A stretch of 64,000 nt of DNA from an uncultured Bacillales bacterium (GTDB lineage Bacteria > Bacillota_I > Bacilli_A > RF39 > UBA660): contig CAMNCL010000005.1 of NCBI GenBank assembly GCA_946534345.1, positions 435 to 64,434 of the forward strand, given 5' to 3'. The notes under the pieces are model-generated. The model was not told the DNA's origin, did no database searches, and saw only the letters and a list, made by a program, of their open reading frames with translations. How positions within the stretch are numbered: the stretch's first letter is position 1; each line of letters begins with the position of its first letter. Both the position numbers and the translations under genes were made by a program. Below are positions 12,148-17,422 of this stretch, piece after piece.

Positions 12148-12212
12148 AAAAACACCTCTTTTTCGTTTGGTGTCCTATTATAACACAAAAGAGCGTAAAA
12201 ATACACTCTTTT

Positions 12213-12413
12213 TTATTTTTTCTTCTTAGTTGTAGTAGCGTTGTCTACAATTCCGATGATATTATCAATTGTTTTTTGCTTTTTCTTGTCTTTTACATTC
12301 TTTTTTGCAGTTTTTAAAAGACCTTCTACAGCATCTCCTGCTTGTTCAACCTTCTTTTTATCTTTAAGTACTTCTTTAGCTTGTTTTTCTAATTCTTTTA
12401 TTAGATTACCCAT
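12213..12413 (-). CDS. small lysine-rich hypothetical protein
   Basis: 66-aa ORF, strongly basic with a poly-Lys tail. The antisense ORF in the track is its shadow. Confidence 0.45.
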   Translation of the reverse strand: MGNLIKELEKQAKEVLKDKKKVEQAGDAVEGLLKTAKKNVKDKKKQKTIDNIIGIVDNATTTKKKK

Positions 12414-12452: not shown

Positions 12453-13232
12453 TTAGTATAAACCCCATTCTGCTAGTTTTTCAAAACCACCTATTTCATT
12501 AATATAATCTCTAGCAATCTCAACTATCTCAGTGTATGGAATTCCATCTACTTCTTCATCACCTATAGCACAACATAGTTTTATCTCTCTATTTTCTTTT
12601 TGGGCTTTCAAGAATGCATAAATATTTATACTTACATCAGCCTTTGATAAATCTTTTCCATGAAGTCCTCCACCAGTTACAGATTCAGCCATATCAGATC
12701 CAAGTTTTCTATTAGTCGCACCACTATCGGTATTAATACCACCTATCCAGTCTCCTAATGGATTAATTACTGCATCAGGATAATCTTTTCTCAACTCTTC
12801 GCTTGATACATTACTCTGACAAATAATTAATTTATCACTTAAAATATATTTACCATCAAACGGATATTTATTATAAATATCATGAGCAATCTTTGATAAC
12901 TTTTTATCACATTCTTTTAATGGTACACCTTTAAAAATACCATTATCACCACATCTAATTTTATCTTTTTGGTTATTAGCTAAATACTCATCTTGTCTAA
13001 CTACTTGTAGATCAACAACTACTTCTCCTGCAATTCTTTTAACTATTAAATCTATTTCATCTTTTTTAAAATCTTCACTTGTTTCAATAATAATATGACA
13101 ATTACCATGTCCTAATAATACTTCAACTGCAATCTTTGGATTATCATTTTTAGTATAGGCTAAATCAACTATAGCTCCAGCTATCCTATCAGCCTGTTTG
13201 TCCGGATGTGCTGGATTAACTTTTTCTATCAT
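12453..13232 (-). CDS. miniaturised S-adenosylmethionine synthetase (MetK)-like protein
   Basis: 259 aa. PAHPDKQADRIAGAIVD compares with MetK GHPDKICDQISDAILD. CGDNGIFKG compares with GAGDQGLMFGYA. TDSGATNRKLGSDM...GGGLHGKDLSKADVS compares with GDAGLTGRKIIVDTYGG..HGGGAFSGKDPTKVDRS. It is the last gene of the S-box-controlled operon. Confidence 0.6.
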   Translation of the reverse strand: MIEKVNPAHPDKQADRIAGAIVDLAYTKNDNPKIAVEVLLGHGNCHIIIETSEDFKKDEIDLIVKRIAGEVVVDLQVVRQDEYLANNQKDKIRCGDNGIFKGVPLKECDKKLSKIAHDIYNKYPFDGKYILSDKLIICQSNVSSEELRKDYPDAVINPLGDWIGGINTDSGATNRKLGSDMAESVTGGGLHGKDLSKADVSINIYAFLKAQKENREIKLCCAIGDEEVDGIPYTEIVEIARDYINEIGGFEKLAEWGLY

Positions 13233-13233
13233 T

Positions 13234-13434
13234 TTATTCCTCCTTTAAATACTTTGAATAAGCTATTTTTCCAAATATATTATCCATACAATATATCAAA
13301 AAATTTATATCTGCATTAGACATTTTTTTTAAAGCTTTTTCTTTCTCTTTAGATGTTTTATACTCCTTTTGAAATTTTAGTATAATTTCCCTTCTCTCTT
13401 TTTCTGTTAACTCTTGTAATTCACTTAATTTCAT
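13234..13434 (-). CDS. small hypothetical protein (S-box operon gene 2)
   Basis: 66-aa ORF, 1 nt from the MetK-like gene and 9 nt from the upstream ORF. I recognised no motif. Confidence 0.5.
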   Translation of the reverse strand: MKLSELQELTEKERREIILKFQKEYKTSKEKEKALKKMSNADINFLIYCMDNIFGKIAYSKYLKEE

Positions 13435-13443
13435 TTAAACCTC

Positions 13444-13758
13444 CTAATCTAGCATTTTTAATGGATGATTTGTATCATACTTTTTATAAATATTATAGAT
13501 TTGAACAAACTCACTTTTTGTGATTGCATGATTCCCTACTGGAATTGTTAGACCAACTCCTGGTATTCCAAATGCATAAATTTTACTATTTAAATTTACA
13601 TAAATCCAATTTATTCCCGGAAAGTGTCCTTTTCTTCCCCAAGAATTGAATCCTTCTTTTTCTAAAAAAGCAATAAAATTAGAATACCATCCTTTTTTTA
13701 GTTCATCATCTTTTATTAAAAAGGCACTACTTCCAGAAGAGATTCGATTAGAATCCAT
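13444..13758 (-). CDS. hypothetical protein (S-box operon gene 1)
   Basis: 104-aa ORF. GGAGGAT precedes its ATG, directly after the riboswitch terminator. I recognised no motif. Confidence 0.55.
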   Translation of the reverse strand: MDSNRISSGSSAFLIKDDELKKGWYSNFIAFLEKEGFNSWGRKGHFPGINWIYVNLNSKIYAFGIPGVGLTIPVGNHAITKSEFVQIYNIYKKYDTNHPLKMLD

Positions 13759-13788
13759 ATATCCTCCTTCCTACATCTTGCTAGATAC

Positions 13789-13906
13789 AAAAAAAGACTC
13801 AAGATAACCTTGAGTCCTAAAGTTATCTTATAGATCTAGCATTACCACCTAACTTAATAGGTTGGTGTGACTTCATAGGGCTAGTCCCTCCATCACTCTT
13901 TATAAG
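13789..13906 (-). promoter_or_regulatory. SAM-I (S-box) riboswitch with intrinsic terminator
   Basis: Minus strand reads CUUAUAAAGAGUGAUGGAGGGACUAGCCCUAUGAAGUCACACCAACC...GGUGGUAAUGCUAGAUCUAUAAG. It matches the S-box core: CUUAUC.AGAG, GGAGGGA, GCCC.AUGAA, CAACC, GGUG..AAU, AUAAG closing P1. It is followed by GACUCAAG-GUUAU-CUUGAGUC plus U7 (13789..13817). Confidence 0.9.
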
Positions 13907-13946
13907 ATGTAAATTCATTATAACATTATTTTTATTAATATCAAGT

Positions 13947-14330
13947 CTAATTTAAATTATCATTAATTATTAACAAATATGCTTCATATGGAAAAAATAA
14001 CATATATCCAACATATTCATATATTAATATTAAATATTTGCATTTTTCCATTGTATCAGTAGCTTTTTCTAAAGCATCTTCATATTCTTTTAACTTAATA
14101 ATATCACTATTAGTAGCATTATCAAATCTAGTAACATCTAAGATATATTCTTTATATTTTATATCTATTTTTGCTTCTAAATTACTATCATTAAAATACT
14201 TATTTTCATATGCTAATAATTCTTCTTTAGAATTAATCTTATTATTTTTTATAATATCAATTAACTTTTCACAAATATCATCATTATTACTATATTTATG
14301 CTTTTCAAGTTCTTCAATTAATTCTATCAT
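13947..14330 (-). CDS. hypothetical helical protein, translationally coupled to the deaminase gene
   Basis: 127-aa ORF. Its ATG overlaps the upstream stop as ATGA (14327..14330). The C-terminus is hydrophobic/aromatic (YLILIYEYVGYMLFFPYEAYLLII). Confidence 0.55.
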   Translation of the reverse strand: MIELIEELEKHKYSNNDDICEKLIDIIKNNKINSKEELLAYENKYFNDSNLEAKIDIKYKEYILDVTRFDNATNSDIIKLKEYEDALEKATDTMEKCKYLILIYEYVGYMLFFPYEAYLLIINDNLN

Positions 14331-17299
14331 CGTATTTTACCCCCTTTATCAACAACACTTTCAATATATTCATCTAAATCATACTTTTTACTATCTACCG
14401 TTTCCTTTATACTATCAAATTTAGTCTCAATATTTAAATAATCAGCTAAGCTTAAAACTCCCATAACACCATGTCTTAAATCATCATCACTATTATAATA
14501 ATTATCCTTCTCGATTTTTCTAATATAATCATCTATTATAGACATTGTATAATCAACTTTTCCATCTATAAGCTCTAGGTTACTATTTAAAAAATCTTTT
14601 AGTTTTCTATATTCTCCTTTAAGATCATTCAAGCTTATATTACCAAAAATATTATTCCTGTTATTATAATTATTATCAACATCATCAATTCTATATTTAT
14701 TTACTACTTTAGTAGTTAAACATTCTTCAAAGTCAACTCCATAGGCTTCCATTAAATATAAAACTTCTGTTAACTCTATACGATAATTCATAACCCCTTG
14801 TAGTGAAACTAAAAGCATAGCTGCTTTTGTATAACGTTTTTCATCCAAGAATTTTTCTATTCTATCAAATGTTTTACTAATTAGCATTAACTCTGAATTG
14901 TTATAGTATAATTCATTAGATATTAAGTCTACAAAATATCTTTGTGTTTCTATAAATTCTCGTTTTAGTTTACTAATTTCTTCTCTATTTTCATCACCAT
15001 TAATTGAATACAGTTGTTTAAAATAACTTCTGACATATTTCTTTTGACTAGCAGCATTTTCATATTCTGAATAAAACTCATGTTCATCATTTTTAGAAGG
15101 CAAGTAGTCCTTAATAGACATACTCATATCTAATCCAGTATTCTTTCCCTTCTTTTTAGGTGGCTTTACTTTAGGTAAGAACAAATCAAGACATTCATCA
15201 AATTCTCCAGTACCTTTACTTTTTTCTTTACTTTTATCAAGATTTTTTTCCCTCTTTAGTTTTGAAAAAATCAATTTTACTTCTTGAGGTAAGGTCGTTA
15301 AATAAAATCCTCCACCATCAGTTCCTAAAACAACATCTATTCCATGTTTTATATATTTATCATATGGTATCTCTTTTAAAGATTTTAAGTTACCTAGTGA
15401 AAAATTTGAACTAGGACATAATTCCACTGTAACATTAAAATGTTTTAACAATTCATAGTATTCTTTTGTATCTACAAAATGAAGGGCATGTCCAAGTCTA
15501 ATGTTTAATCTATCTCTTAAAGAAAAATTATCTTTTAAATCTTTAATACGCTCTACTTCTCTATCAAAATCATCCAGAGAATGAGTTTCTAAGTATTTAA
15601 TAATTTTATATTCTCTTTTGGCTTTTTCTAATTCAAGGAGTTCACTCTCATCATAACTATAGTCTTTTGAACTAAAATCTCCTACTTTAGACTCATCTCT
15701 TTTAATTTTTTTATTCAAGGTTTCGAGTCTTCTGCTTTGTTTATTTCTCTGGGATTCTGATAGATTCTCTTTTTTTAACATGTTTATTATTTGATCCCGC
15801 TCTACGACCCTTTTCTCATAGTTTTCAATTAAATCTTTCATATCATTTTTACTAGCGTTTAAATAACGATCATGAAGCATACTTTTTCGCTTAAGGTCTT
15901 CCATGAATTCTTCTGTTATCAAGCCTTTTTTATATCTATCCATTAAATCATAGAGTTCTGCATATTCATTTTTTATTTCATCTTCGATTGATTTTAAAAT
16001 CTGTAAAGTTATAAGTGGATTAGAGGCACTCTCATCATAAAACAGTTCACCAGCATGTAATCGTAATGTAGGTTTTTTATCATTATTTCTTGAACCAACT
16101 AACAATTTTGTAGTTAAATACTTTAGTCTTGAGTAAAGTGTATTACACTCTTCTCTACTATCTGTTTTATCTTTTTCTGTAATTAAATTTTCTTCTCCCA
16201 TTAAATCAGCACCAATAACTTCAGTGGGATAATTCTCAAGTAGATCTATTAAAAAATCACAATTTCTACTAAAATCAGTTCCTTCTTGATTACGCTCATG
16301 ACTTTGTAAAAACTTAAACTCTATCTCATCAACTCTACGCTTACCAATTTTTCCAAGTATTCCTTCTATAGTTCTAGAACCAGAGTAACTAAATTCAACA
16401 TAATTAACTCCTTGCTTTTTTAATACCTCTAAACTTGTAAAAAGCAACTCAGAATAAACATCTAGTTTAAACTCATCATATAACTCTTGCTTTTTTTCAT
16501 CTAGCTGCTCCATCATCCTCTTTTTGGTCTCGTATTCAGCAACTTTGCTTTCATCTTTTTTTATTTCTTTTTTTAATTCTTTTGTCTCACTATCTAAGTT
16601 GTCATATTTTTCTTCTATATCTACTAGAAGCTTAAATTGTTTCTCTTCTTTATTTTTAGCGTGATTATAAATCGTATAATTTAACAAAGCTTGTCTAACA
16701 GGAAGTCGGTCCTTCAAATATTGGAAATCAACTTGTCTATCTACAGGAGCTTCTAATTGTTCTAAGATTTTATTATCTTTTATAGCATCATCAATTGGAA
16801 TTTCTACATATTGTGATTTATCATATTCGCCTCTAACATACTTGCGTTCAGTCATACGTGCTATTTTACCAGTTTCTTTATCAACTAGAATATAATCGAT
16901 GTATCCAAATTCTTTTACAAACCTAAGTAATTCTTCTCCACTTAATACTTCTATAAAATGAGTATGTAATTCTTTAGTAGTATCTAAATCAGGATGTGGA
17001 TTATCTTTCTTAAACATTTTCTTATTATCAGCATATTCTTTATCTAAACCCTTGCTAGCTTTATCTGAAGCAGCATTTTTAACTTCAAATGTTGTAAGAT
17101 TAACATAACTATTAAATATGCCGGTATTAATATCTATTTCACCAATAGGGTTTCCATATAATTCTAAAATATACTTGTCTTTTACTTTTCTAAAATAATA
17201 TGAATCTTTTGGAGCTCTATGATCATTAATTATAACTATATTTCCATCTATAATATCATAATCAATATATAAATATTCATTAATATTAATCTTCATCAT
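14327..17299 (-). CDS. large adenosine/AMP-deaminase-fold protein with helical insertions and extra N- and C-terminal domains
   Basis: All adenosine deaminase (ADA) metal/catalytic motifs are present in order: KELHTHF (HxH), VNYVEFSYS, VIGADLMGEE, LRLHAGE, RLGHALH, VELCPSSN, VVLGTDGGG. There are insertions of ~70 aa and ~160 aa of coiled-coil-like sequence and a ~300-aa C-terminal extension. I moved the start to the ATG at 17299, 8 nt after AGGAG. The track GTG lies within that site. Confidence 0.7.
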   Translation of the reverse strand: MMKININEYLYIDYDIIDGNIVIINDHRAPKDSYYFRKVKDKYILELYGNPIGEIDINTGIFNSYVNLTTFEVKNAASDKASKGLDKEYADNKKMFKKDNPHPDLDTTKELHTHFIEVLSGEELLRFVKEFGYIDYILVDKETGKIARMTERKYVRGEYDKSQYVEIPIDDAIKDNKILEQLEAPVDRQVDFQYLKDRLPVRQALLNYTIYNHAKNKEEKQFKLLVDIEEKYDNLDSETKELKKEIKKDESKVAEYETKKRMMEQLDEKKQELYDEFKLDVYSELLFTSLEVLKKQGVNYVEFSYSGSRTIEGILGKIGKRRVDEIEFKFLQSHERNQEGTDFSRNCDFLIDLLENYPTEVIGADLMGEENLITEKDKTDSREECNTLYSRLKYLTTKLLVGSRNNDKKPTLRLHAGELFYDESASNPLITLQILKSIEDEIKNEYAELYDLMDRYKKGLITEEFMEDLKRKSMLHDRYLNASKNDMKDLIENYEKRVVERDQIINMLKKENLSESQRNKQSRRLETLNKKIKRDESKVGDFSSKDYSYDESELLELEKAKREYKIIKYLETHSLDDFDREVERIKDLKDNFSLRDRLNIRLGHALHFVDTKEYYELLKHFNVTVELCPSSNFSLGNLKSLKEIPYDKYIKHGIDVVLGTDGGGFYLTTLPQEVKLIFSKLKREKNLDKSKEKSKGTGEFDECLDLFLPKVKPPKKKGKNTGLDMSMSIKDYLPSKNDEHEFYSEYENAASQKKYVRSYFKQLYSINGDENREEISKLKREFIETQRYFVDLISNELYYNNSELMLISKTFDRIEKFLDEKRYTKAAMLLVSLQGVMNYRIELTEVLYLMEAYGVDFEECLTTKVVNKYRIDDVDNNYNNRNNIFGNISLNDLKGEYRKLKDFLNSNLELIDGKVDYTMSIIDDYIRKIEKDNYYNSDDDLRHGVMGVLSLADYLNIETKFDSIKETVDSKKYDLDEYIESVVDKGGKIR

Positions 17300-17422
17300 T
17301 ATAATCACTCCTATATTAATATAATAACATAAAAATTATTATTAATAATAGATATATTTACTCAATAATATATCTTTTTTTTTATAGCTTTTTCTTGTAT
17401 AATTATTTAAAGGAGAGTGAAT

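What the first reader, a model, noticed from the sequence alone, without database searches (positions are those of the whole stretch)
12453..13906. SAM-I riboswitch controls an operon ending in a 259-aa mini-MetK homologue
Seen in sequence: a well-formed S-box aptamer plus terminator (13789..13906, minus strand) precedes three tightly packed ORFs of 104, 66 and 259 aa. The 259-aa protein keeps the hallmark MetK blocks. AHPDKQADRIAGAIVD corresponds to GHPDKICDQISDAILD. CGDNGIFKG corresponds to GAGDQGLMFGYA. TDSGATNRKLGSDM...GGGLHGKDLSKADVS corresponds to GDAGLTGRKIIVD...HGGGAFSGKDPTKVDRS. It is roughly one third shorter than canonical bacterial MetK, which is about 380-400 aa. Established knowledge: S-box riboswitches repress methionine/SAM biosynthesis and transport genes, including metK, when SAM is abundant. 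Inference: this is either a minimised methionine adenosyltransferase or a MetK-derived enzyme with another SAM-related activity. It works together with two unknown small proteins that share the same SAM-responsive control.
Basis: partly seen in the sequence, partly recalled or inferred. Interest (0 to 1): 0.65.

Follow-up and report, generated by a model that had tools for sequence, protein, structure and literature searches.

The report
SAM riboswitch controlling a miniature SAM synthetase
A SAM-sensing RNA switch that lacks one of its usual four helices controls a 259-residue version of the enzyme that makes SAM; it keeps every catalytic residue, is about a third smaller than any studied form, and belongs to a family otherwise carried mainly by phages next to their DNA methylases.

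Summary
A SAM-I (S-box) aptamer lies at 13825-13908(-), scoring 66.7 bits against Rfam's threshold of 44.4. It has a strong promoter upstream and an intrinsic terminator downstream, and it precedes tightly packed ORFs of 104, 66 and 259 aa.

The 259-aa protein is a true MetK homologue:
- The AlphaFold model (pLDDT 95.5) matches only methionine adenosyltransferases in the PDB (TM 0.68-0.77).
- All 18 positions matching E. coli catalytic or ligand residues are invariant in 167 family members.
- dN/dS is 0.1-0.2.

The family (phrog_1569) is large and has two settings. In phages and prophages it sits beside DNA methyltransferases with no riboswitch. In chromosomes of uncultured gut and rumen Firmicutes it sits behind the same P4-less S-box.

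In most loci the mini-MetK follows the riboswitch directly, so the two small ORFs are not obligate partners. Their families do recur behind this riboswitch, with or without MetK, so the shared SAM control is real.

The most likely function is a compact SAM synthetase under SAM feedback. I could not test whether it is the organism's only MetK. Verdict: a new variant of a known kind, of moderate interest.

The parts
13917..13944 (-). Sigma-70-type promoter with extended -10 (TTGATA, 16 nt, TGnTATAAT)
   Evidence: Best promoter match in the region, 11 of 12 positions with TG before the -10. It ends 9 nt upstream of the aptamer. This is a consensus match only; the transcription start was not tested.
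13825..13908 (-). SAM-I (S-box) riboswitch aptamer, an 84-nt form without helix P4
   Evidence: Rfam RF00162 at 66.7 bits against a threshold of 44.4. Homologous aptamers lie upstream of mini-MetK in 38 of 80 genome loci. P1-P3 show covariation: 95.4% of cells are paired against 32-51% in slid controls, and 11 of 25 pairs have compensatory changes.
13822..13829 (-). Candidate antiterminator strand AAGAUAAC (3' strand of P1 plus linker)
   Evidence: Perfectly complementary to GUUAUCUU (13801-13808) inside the terminator. The complementarity is kept in the Bacilli-type relatives and is replaced by a GAUGGG/CCCAUC/GAUGGG arrangement in the Clostridia-type relatives. This is inferred; the minimum-energy fold favours the terminator.
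13787..13818 (-). Intrinsic terminator of the riboswitch expression platform
   Evidence: 11-bp stem (AGGACUCAAGG/CUUGAGUCUU) followed by a U-run.
13444..13758 (-). ORF of 104 aa, small family of unknown function (f104)
   Evidence: ORF with a ribosome-binding site. The family has 15 members. Members are preceded by the same riboswitch in a conjugative element (L173/L174), a prophage (L175) and other chromosomes (L178/L180). No hit in Pfam, NCBIfam, PHROGs, PADLOC or the PDB.
13234..13434 (-). ORF of 66 aa, small family of unknown function (f66, probably related to f74)
   Evidence: ORF with a ribosome-binding site. It has 18 homologues at 70-98% identity, found in the same position before mini-MetK in L025, L178 and L180. 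Profile comparison with the 74-aa family gives probability 72%, E 3e-5.
12453..13232 (-). Mini-MetK: 259-aa compact methionine adenosyltransferase homologue (phrog_1569)
   Evidence: Family and sequence matches. Model: pLDDT 95.5. Foldseek returns only MATs, TM 0.68-0.77. hhalign to E. coli MetK gives probability 97.7%. 18 catalytic-equivalent residues are invariant in 167 sequences. dN/dS is 0.11-0.19.
12213..12413 (-). Lys-rich 66-aa ORF downstream; probably the last gene of the unit or a separate small gene
   Evidence: It starts 39 nt after mini-MetK. It is conserved at this position in syntenic relatives (L001, L008, L009, L011; also L186, L284). A promoter-like site lies just upstream at 12462-12433, so co-transcription is not certain.
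12187..12212 (-). Hairpin after the Lys-rich ORF, likely terminator at the end of the unit
   Evidence: 11-bp stem, -14.2 kcal/mol, z-score -5.5 against shuffles. The U-tract lies partly within the stem, so this assignment is tentative.

Best explanation
The locus is a SAM-feedback unit.

How the switch works: transcription starts at the promoter at about 13917. The nascent 84-nt, P4-less SAM-I aptamer binds SAM when SAM is plentiful. Binding closes helix P1, which frees the downstream hairpin to terminate transcription at about 13790. When SAM is scarce, the 3' strand of P1 (AAGAUAAC) pairs instead with GUUAUCUU inside the terminator. Polymerase then reads through the 104-aa ORF, the 66-aa ORF and the 259-aa gene.

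What the enzyme does: the 259-aa protein is a catalytically competent but pared-down methionine adenosyltransferase that makes SAM from methionine and ATP. It keeps the three-domain MAT fold and all active-site residues. It has lost about 125 residues of peripheral loops, a beta-hairpin and the C-terminal ~43 residues.

Where the lineage lives: in temperate phages of Firmicutes it sits next to DNA methyltransferases, presumably supplying their cofactor. The copy here is a chromosomal, vertically inherited version under S-box control.

The small ORFs: the two upstream ORFs belong to small families that are repeatedly placed under this same riboswitch. They are variable, co-regulated cargo, not required partners of the enzyme.

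Basis of each step:
- Shown: the aptamer, terminator and ORFs; homology; the predicted fold; residue conservation; the genomic distribution.
- Inferred: SAM binding, the antiterminator mechanism, enzymatic activity, dimer formation, and the role in the cell.
For: Riboswitch:
- Rfam score above threshold; promoter and terminator present.
- Alternative pairing is conserved, in two different sequence solutions, across relatives.
- P1-P3 covary.

Enzyme:
- Pfam N domain, and HMMER hits to about 45 solved MetK sequences.
- AF2 model at pLDDT 95.5 and pTM 0.93.
- The top 50 PDB fold matches are all MATs (E down to 5e-18, TM 0.68-0.77).
- hhalign to E. coli MetK gives probability 97.7%. The E. coli sequence was verified as identical to PDB entry 7ll3.
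- Residue mapping (window = E. coli): H9=H14, D11=D16, K12=K17, E37=E42, E50=E55, Q80=Q98, D96=D118, W162=F230, D169=D238, R175/K176=R244/K245, K193=K265, K197=K269, D199=D271. All are 100% invariant in 167 sequences that are only 66-86% identical overall.
- Purifying selection, dN/dS 0.11-0.19.

Context:
- 38 of the 80 best genome loci carry the riboswitch directly upstream. None of 80 IMG/VR loci, none of 3 GenBank phages and none of 18 prophage-type genome loci do.
- In phages the same slot, between the helicase/HNH genes and the DNA methyltransferases, holds either this 260-aa protein or a 345-353-aa three-domain MetK (PMC4260502).
- The same P4-less riboswitch precedes a ~340-aa three-domain MetK in 16 metagenome loci and the 260-aa form in 30.
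- Synteny with HSP20 and RluD is kept across relatives at 80-86% identity, so the chromosomal copy is vertically inherited.
Against: - No activity, SAM-binding or termination assay exists for this family in the library I searched. Only annotation-level mentions were found (PMC11283538).
- The protein fails the curated metK equivalog threshold by a wide margin (46.6 against 309 bits), and the Pfam central domain is not detected.
- The equivalent of E. coli K165 (here K128 in the FDGK motif) rests on motif and predicted strand topology. Both sequence aligners place that motif one hairpin later.
- MAT active sites form at a dimer interface, and I could not model an oligomer.
- The aptamer lacks P4, so its affinity and specificity for SAM are assumed.
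- The antiterminator is only 8 AU-rich base pairs, and thermodynamic folding favours the terminator.
Confidence: 0.72

Rival explanations
1. Sole housekeeping enzyme. In this clade of small-genome rumen and gut Bacilli, the mini-MetK has displaced the canonical metK. It is the only SAM synthetase and occupies the usual S-box-controlled metK slot.
For: - No other MetK-like ORF in the 64 kb window.
- Conserved chromosomal synteny and purifying selection.
- In Firmicutes the S-box classically controls metK (established knowledge; PMC2864571).
- Related metagenomic lineages carry the same P4-less riboswitch in front of either a ~340-aa MetK or the 260-aa form, never both on one locus.
- One carrier MAG has a 1.04 Mb contig, which fits a reduced genome.
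Against: - Not testable here.
- Riboswitch-linked copies also occur in MAGs labelled Agathobacter, Oscillospiraceae and Clostridium CAG:217. From general knowledge these lineages normally have a canonical metK, so an auxiliary role is at least sometimes likely.
- L300 shows that a full-length, P4-containing S-box with a 347-aa MetK can coexist with a P4-less unit in one genome.
Confidence: 0.3
2. MetK-derived enzyme with a different activity. Candidates are a tripolyphosphatase, a SAM-cleaving enzyme, or an adenosyltransferase acting on another thioether or nucleotide. It would be used by mobile elements to manipulate the SAM pool.
For: - Strong divergence from the metK equivalog model.
- Loss of about a third of the protein.
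- Origin in mobile elements, where SAM-manipulating enzymes are known. T3 SAM lyase, solved in complex with MetK, appears among the fold hits as entry 8bb1.
Against: - The methionine-contacting equivalents (E55, Q98, D238), the adenine-stacking aromatic, and all triphosphate and metal ligands are invariant.
- OFF-regulation by SAM fits a SAM producer, not a SAM degrader.
- In phages it replaces a three-domain MetK positionally, next to SAM-consuming methyltransferases.
Confidence: 0.1
3. Non-catalytic MetK mimic. The protein heterodimerises with, or titrates partners of, the host MetK and so acts as a regulator or anti-defence decoy rather than making SAM.
For: - MAT active sites are built at subunit interfaces, so a trimmed paralogue could in principle poison or modulate host MetK (inference).
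- The family has a phage origin.
Against: - Complete invariance of catalytic residues over 167 sequences is not expected for a decoy.
- Chromosomal copies are vertically inherited under purifying selection and under product feedback.
Confidence: 0.05
4. Functional module. The small proteins (104 aa and 66 aa) are accessory subunits or chaperones that the truncated enzyme needs for stability or activity.
For: - Tight operon spacing of 9 nt and 1 nt.
- The 104-66-MetK order recurs in a different chromosomal context (L178, L180, L278).
- The f66/f74 family is the commonest ORF found immediately before mini-MetK.
Against: - Most mini-MetK genes, including all phage copies, have none of these ORFs nearby.
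- The small families occur behind the riboswitch without MetK: f82/84 is first in 27 loci (3 of them run on into mini-MetK), f74 in 9 (4 do), and f66 in 4 (none do).
- The 104-aa family occurs in a conjugative element with no MetK on the contig held.
Confidence: 0.08

Closest known systems
Canonical bacterial MetK / methionine adenosyltransferase (E. coli MetK, 384 aa; PDB 1fug, 7ll3)
   Same: Same predicted three-domain fold (TM 0.74-0.77 normalised to the query) and the same motifs (HPDK, GDxG, DxGxTxRK, GGGxxxGKDxxKxD). All mapped catalytic, metal, methionine and adenine ligands are retained.
   Different: It is about 125 residues shorter. The losses are peripheral loops (E. coli about 77-90, 128-138, 147-160 and parts of 192-222), the 309-323 hairpin and the last ~43 residues. 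Identity is 19-26%. It scores 46.6 bits against the 309-bit TIGR01034 cut-off, and the Pfam central domain is not recognised. The shortest MAT among the solved chains matched is 377 aa.
Compact three-domain phage MetKs (Streptococcus prophage Phi1207.3 orf29, 353 aa; Javan20, 345 aa) and the ~340-aa MetKs behind the same riboswitch
   Same: Same position in the phage replication and modification module, upstream of adenine and cytosine DNA methyltransferases (PMC4260502). The ~340-aa chromosomal forms sit behind the same P4-less S-box.
   Different: Those proteins keep all three Pfam domains at significant scores (PMC4260502). They are only about 26% identical to the mini form. The mini form is a further 80-90 residues shorter.
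S-adenosylmethionine synthetase auxiliary gene of Ca. Heliusvirales gut phages (KEGG K00789)
   Same: GenBank Heliusvirales phages (the NatCom records) carry 65-70% identical homologues. The published survey reports K00789 in 58.9% of genomes, alongside a cytosine-5 methyltransferase (PMC11283538).
   Different: That is annotation only; its small size and its activity were not examined. The phage copies have no riboswitch, whereas the window copy is chromosomal and S-box controlled.
Classical S-box (SAM-I) leaders of Firmicute metK and methionine genes (Rfam RF00162)
   Same: Conserved P1-P3 core. Terminator and antiterminator competition involves the 3' strand of P1. OFF regulation of a SAM-synthesis gene.
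   Different: Helix P4 is missing altogether, giving an 84-nt aptamer. In this lineage the regulon also includes four families of small proteins of unknown function. Other SAM-clan classes (SAM-IV, SAM-I/IV) also depart from P4, but that comparison is from my own knowledge. Here Rfam's clan competition assigned RF00162.

Membership tests
Methionine adenosyltransferase (MetK; TIGR01034; Pfam PF00438+PF02772+PF02773) | Scores above the curated family thresholds for a full-length metK | tested here: not met
   TIGR01034 scores 46.6 bits against a cut-off of 309.4. Pfam N domain scores 40.2 (cut-off 33.1, met). C domain scores 14.7 (cut-off 25, not met). Central domain is not detected.
Methionine adenosyltransferase (MetK; TIGR01034; Pfam PF00438+PF02772+PF02773) | Three-domain MAT fold | tested here: met
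   AF2 model at pLDDT 95.5. All 50 top PDB matches are MATs, E 5e-18 to 1e-15, TM (query-normalised) 0.66-0.77. This rests on a predicted structure, not a solved one.
Methionine adenosyltransferase (MetK; TIGR01034; Pfam PF00438+PF02772+PF02773) | Catalytic and ligand residues (E. coli H14, D16, K17, E42, E55, Q98, D118, K165, F230, D238, R244, K245, K265, K269, D271) | tested here: met
   All have equivalents in the profile alignment and are invariant in 167 family sequences. The K165 equivalent (K128) is assigned from the FDGK/PDAK motif and predicted strand topology, not by the aligners.
Methionine adenosyltransferase (MetK; TIGR01034; Pfam PF00438+PF02772+PF02773) | Active site formed between two subunits of a dimer or tetramer | not testable with these tools
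   No multimer prediction was available.
Methionine adenosyltransferase (MetK; TIGR01034; Pfam PF00438+PF02772+PF02773) | Makes SAM from methionine and ATP | not testable with these tools
   Needs an enzyme assay or complementation test. None was found in the literature searches.
SAM-I riboswitch (S-box, Rfam RF00162) | Covariance-model score at or above the gathering threshold | tested here: met
   66.7 bits against 44.4. Relatives score 46.6-68.5 bits.
SAM-I riboswitch (S-box, Rfam RF00162) | Four-helix junction P1-P4 | tested here: not met
   The 17 model positions of P4 are deleted in the window and in 84-nt relatives. P1, P2 and P3 are present and covary.
SAM-I riboswitch (S-box, Rfam RF00162) | Expression platform with mutually exclusive terminator and antiterminator involving the P1 3' strand | tested here: met
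   Terminator found. AAGAUAAC/GUUAUCUU complementarity is conserved, and a different compensating solution appears in Clostridia-type loci. Function is not assayed.
SAM-I riboswitch (S-box, Rfam RF00162) | Binds SAM selectively | not testable with these tools
   Needs in-line probing or ITC.
PHROGs family phrog_1569 (phage proteins, function listed as unknown) | Full-length profile match | tested here: met
   E 1.3e-67, 229.7 bits, residues 1-258 against profile positions 4-336 of 346.
Phage SAM-synthetase plus DNA-methyltransferase module | Adjacent DNA methyltransferase genes within a phage replication or packaging region | tested here: not met
   The window neighbours are cellular or unknown genes (HSP20, RluD, PhoU/PHO4, a TMEM43-like gene) with no methyltransferase. 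The module is present in about 40 non-riboswitch loci.

The most novel reading that the evidence does not exclude
A phage-derived 259-aa enzyme is the only SAM synthetase in a clade of reduced-genome rumen and gut Bacilli. It has displaced the near-universal ~385-aa MetK and taken over S-box control, which would make it the smallest natural MAT. In addition, the P4-less S-box defines a SAM-starvation regulon that includes four unknown small-protein families (f104, f82/84, f74/f66). These families are shared with conjugative elements and prophages and would act as new SAM-related effectors, for example in anti-restriction or cofactor economy.
Probability: 0.25. Interest if true: 0.75.

Novelty: new variant of a known kind. 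Interest (0 to 1): 0.55.

Why it matters
MAT is one of the most conserved enzymes in biology. The smallest matched solved forms are about 377 residues.

If a 259-residue protein is active, three things follow:
- It would define the minimal catalytic core of the fold.
- It would be a compact SAM or SAM-analogue generator for biocatalysis.
- It would show how phages pare down a housekeeping enzyme and how such a gene is later domesticated under host-type riboswitch control.

The family is common. It was found in at least 554 species genomes and at least 586 viral contigs, and it is reported as an auxiliary gene in most Heliusvirales gut phages. Its real activity therefore affects how gut phage 'metK' genes are interpreted.

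The 84-nt S-box without P4 is a naturally minimised SAM sensor. Its small-protein regulon points to unknown players in the SAM-limitation response.

Tried and rejected
- **Single-sequence AlphaFold model:** unusable (pLDDT 50). It was replaced by a 23-sequence alignment.
- **Foldseek against viral predicted structures (BFVD):** no meaningful hit (best E 0.014, TM 0.26).
- **PADLOC:** no defence-system match for the mini-MetK or the small ORFs.
- **Literature:** ten searches found no biochemical study of a short MetK and no description of a P4-less S-box.
- **Small ORFs as one conserved pair:** rejected by BLASTP between relatives. Profile comparison later linked only f66 with f74. The f82/84 to f104 similarity is a short C-terminal motif only (probability 13%).
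- **Small ORFs as phage genes:** no tblastn hit in 50,697 phage records.
- **A conserved downstream partner:** in Clostridia-type loci an ECF transporter follows, in others a B12/radical-SAM protein or ABC transporters. Nothing is consistent.
- **Direction of transfer:** a neighbour-joining tree does not make the riboswitch-linked copies monophyletic, so direction of phage-to-chromosome transfer is left open.
- **A second, canonical metK in the same genome:** none in the window. The wider genome could not be read.
- **Exact-pattern scan for the aptamer in IMG/VR:** zero hits.
Full report
**1. Observation**

- Rfam finds one RNA family in the 64 kb window. It is SAM-I (RF00162) at 13825-13908 on the minus strand, 66.7 bits against a gathering score of 44.4.
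- The alignment shows an intact P1-P3 core, but the 17 model positions of helix P4 are deleted, giving an 84-nt aptamer.
- A near-consensus extended -10 promoter (TTGATA-16-TGnTATAAT) lies at 13944-13917 and ends 9 nt before the aptamer.
- An 11-bp hairpin with a U-run follows at 13818-13794 (folds).
- Three ORFs of 104, 66 and 259 aa follow, with 9-nt and 1-nt spacers and GGAGG-type ribosome-binding sites.
- A Lys-rich 66-aa ORF (12213-12413) and a strong hairpin (12187-12212, z = -5.5) end the unit.

**2. The 259-aa protein**

*Sequence.* Pfam detects the MetK N-terminal domain above threshold, the C domain weakly, and not the central domain. NCBI's metK equivalog scores 46.6 bits against a cut-off of 309. 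HMMER aligns residues 3-60 and 141-210 to about 45 solved MetK sequences.

*Structure.* A single-sequence AlphaFold model was useless. A 23-sequence family alignment gave pLDDT 95.5 and pTM 0.93. Foldseek against the PDB returned only methionine adenosyltransferases: E down to 5e-18, query-normalised TM 0.66-0.77, alignments spanning about 350 target columns. The whole three-domain fold is therefore kept, with shortened elements.

*Catalytic residues.* A profile alignment to E. coli MetK gives probability 97.7%. I had typed the E. coli sequence from memory and verified it as 100% identical to PDB entry 7ll3. The mapping, using literature numbering for E. coli, is:

| Window | E. coli |
|---|---|
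| H9 | H14 |
| D11 | D16 |
| K12 | K17 |
| E37 | E42 |
| E50 | E55 |
| Q80 | Q98 |
| D96 | D118 |
| W162 | F230 |
| D169 | D238 |
| R175 / K176 | R244 / K245 |
| K193 | K265 |
| K197 | K269 |
| D199 | D271 |

D126/K128 (FDGK) most likely equal D163/K165 (PDAK). I infer this from the motif and from the predicted helix-strand-strand topology. The aligners place that motif one hairpin later, so this one assignment is inferred.

*Conservation.* All 18 positions are invariant in 167 family sequences that are only 66-86% identical overall. dN/dS between orthologues is 0.11-0.19.

*What is missing.* The losses are peripheral loops, a hairpin (E. coli about 309-323) and the last ~43 residues.

**3. 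The family and its two settings**

*Size.*
- The protein matches phrog_1569, listed as 'unknown function', at E 1e-67.
- It has more than 8000 word-sharing relatives in the 5.8-billion-protein set.
- There are 206 clusters (50% identity) at E below 1e-30.
- At least 554 species genomes encode a relative, as do at least 586 IMG/VR contigs.

*Phage setting.* In GenBank phages (Streptococcus Javan prophages, Heliusvirales gut phages, a Gardnerella phage) it lies between helicase/HNH genes and adenine and cytosine DNA methyltransferases. Related phages have a 345-353-aa three-domain MetK in the same slot (PMC4260502). A published survey lists 'S-adenosylmethionine synthetase K00789' in 58.9% of Heliusvirales genomes (PMC11283538).

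*Chromosomal setting.* I clustered neighbouring ORFs in the 80 best genome loci. They split cleanly into about 40 prophage-type loci with methyltransferases and no riboswitch, and 38 loci with the P4-less S-box immediately upstream and unrelated cellular neighbours.

*Controls for riboswitch absence.* No riboswitch was found in 80 viral loci with my model. Rfam found none in 17 viral loci, 18 prophage-type loci or 3 GenBank phage loci.

*Inheritance.* The window copy shares synteny (Lys-rich ORF, 179-aa and 240-aa ORFs, HSP20, RluD) with relatives at 80-86% identity. It is a vertically inherited chromosomal gene of rumen and gut 'Bacilli / Erysipelotrichaceae' MAGs.

**4. The riboswitch**

Across 39 aptamers, 95.4% of cells are paired against 32-51% for slid controls, and 11 of 25 pairs show compensatory changes. 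The alignment was fitted to the model, which is a caveat.

The expression platform is conserved. In Bacilli-type loci the P1 3' strand plus linker (AAGAUAAC) is complementary to GUUAUCUU inside the terminator. In Clostridia-type loci the same logic uses GAUGGG/CCCAUC/GAUGGG. This is the classical S-box OFF switch. The antiterminator is weak thermodynamically, so the mechanism remains inferred.

**5. The small ORFs**

They are real genes but not fixed partners.
- In most riboswitch-linked loci the aptamer ends about 65 nt before the mini-MetK start.
- Elsewhere the gap holds a 74-aa, an 82-aa, a 66-aa, or 104+66-aa ORFs, with no BLAST similarity between them.
- The 104-aa family has 15 members. 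It is itself preceded by the same riboswitch in a conjugative element with no MetK (L173/L174), in a GC-rich prophage divergent from the MetK-methyltransferase module (L175), and in other chromosomes as 104-66-MetK (L178/L180).

An exact-pattern scan for the aptamer found at least 120 metagenome loci. In the 108 that were readable, the first gene after the aptamer was:

| First gene after the aptamer | Loci |
|---|---|
| Mini-MetK (~260 aa) | 30 |
| Three-domain MetK (~340 aa) | 16 |
| Partial MetK | 6 |
| f82/84 | 27 |
| f74 | 9 |
| f66 | 4 |
| f104 | 2 |
| Other | 12 |
| No ORF within 200 nt | 2 |

f66 and f74 are probably one divergent family. None of the small families has a hit in any library searched. 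Shared SAM control is therefore confirmed and general. A functional link to the enzyme is not.

**6. What could not be settled**

I could not determine whether the carrier genomes also have a canonical metK. There is none in the window. I had only one genome scan, and only about 9 kb is held per hit.

- *For displacement:* related lineages place the same riboswitch before either a ~340-aa or a 260-aa MetK.
- *Against displacement:* riboswitch-linked copies occur in MAGs labelled as Clostridia lineages that normally have metK. L300 also shows a P4-containing S-box with a 347-aa MetK coexisting with a P4-less unit.

**7. Verdict**

The finding is real. The best reading is a compact, probably active SAM synthetase under SAM feedback. 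It belongs to a large, mostly phage-borne family that is uncharacterised biochemically and only generically annotated. It is a new variant of a known kind. Interest is moderate (0.55), and would be higher if it proves to be the sole MAT of these organisms or if the small S-box-controlled proteins turn out to have SAM-related functions.

Noticed in passing
window 13825-13908(-); also L007, L009, L011, L013-L080 (38 loci), and L173-L181: Every aptamer linked to the mini-MetK is a SAM-I variant with helix P4 deleted outright (84-91 nt), yet it scores above Rfam's threshold and covaries in P1-P3. My literature searches found no paper describing a P4-less S-box.
   Followed up: partly
L173 3851-4318, L174 384-851, L175 3845-4342: The same riboswitch precedes a homologue of the window's 104-aa ORF in two other settings. 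One is a conjugative element (TraG/VirD4, TrbL, PrgI) with no MetK. The other is a GC-rich prophage, where it is divergently placed next to the mini-MetK and methyltransferase module.
   Followed up: partly
metagenome loci L182-L301: In 108 readable loci, the P4-less riboswitch of this sequence type is followed first by small proteins of unknown function in 42 cases: f82/84 (motif FPFVVD..K..CESITCCA..EFKK) in 27, f74 in 9, f66 in 4 and f104 in 2. This amounts to an unrecognised small-protein part of the S-box regulon.
   Followed up: partly
L300 2043-2126 and 8931-10139: One contig carries both a full-length, P4-containing S-box (81 bits) before a 347-aa three-domain MetK and a P4-less S-box (61 bits) before a 78-aa f74 gene.
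   Followed up: partly
L011 5409-5492 and 5600-5683: Two tandem P4-less SAM-I aptamers precede an 82-aa ORF and the mini-MetK in a close relative (86% identical protein).
   Followed up: no
window 13947-17308(-): There is a 993-aa protein whose only recognisable part is an adenosine-deaminase-like segment (residues ~600-684; Pfam PF00962 4e-11; weak PADLOC CARF_ADA hit), plus a 127-aa ORF. The pair lies between a TMEM43-like gene and the riboswitch. It is present in the window and in L014 but absent from syntenic relatives L008, L009 and L011, so it looks like an accessory insertion and possibly a defence gene.
   Followed up: partly
L029 4914-8050, L039 3767-6928, L050 4887-8052: In Clostridia-type MAGs the riboswitch-linked mini-MetK is followed, after a gap of 104-131 nt, by a complete ECF transporter: an S component of the riboflavin-type family (PRK13661), a fused EcfA/A' and EcfT.
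   Followed up: partly
window 12213-12413(-): A Lys-rich 66-aa ORF immediately downstream of the mini-MetK is conserved in the syntenic relatives and is followed by a strong hairpin. Its function is unknown.
   Followed up: no
L031 3557-3746(-): A T-box leader (116.6 bits) lies divergently about 100 nt upstream of the S-box and mini-MetK unit in an Erysipelotrichaceae MAG.
   Followed up: no
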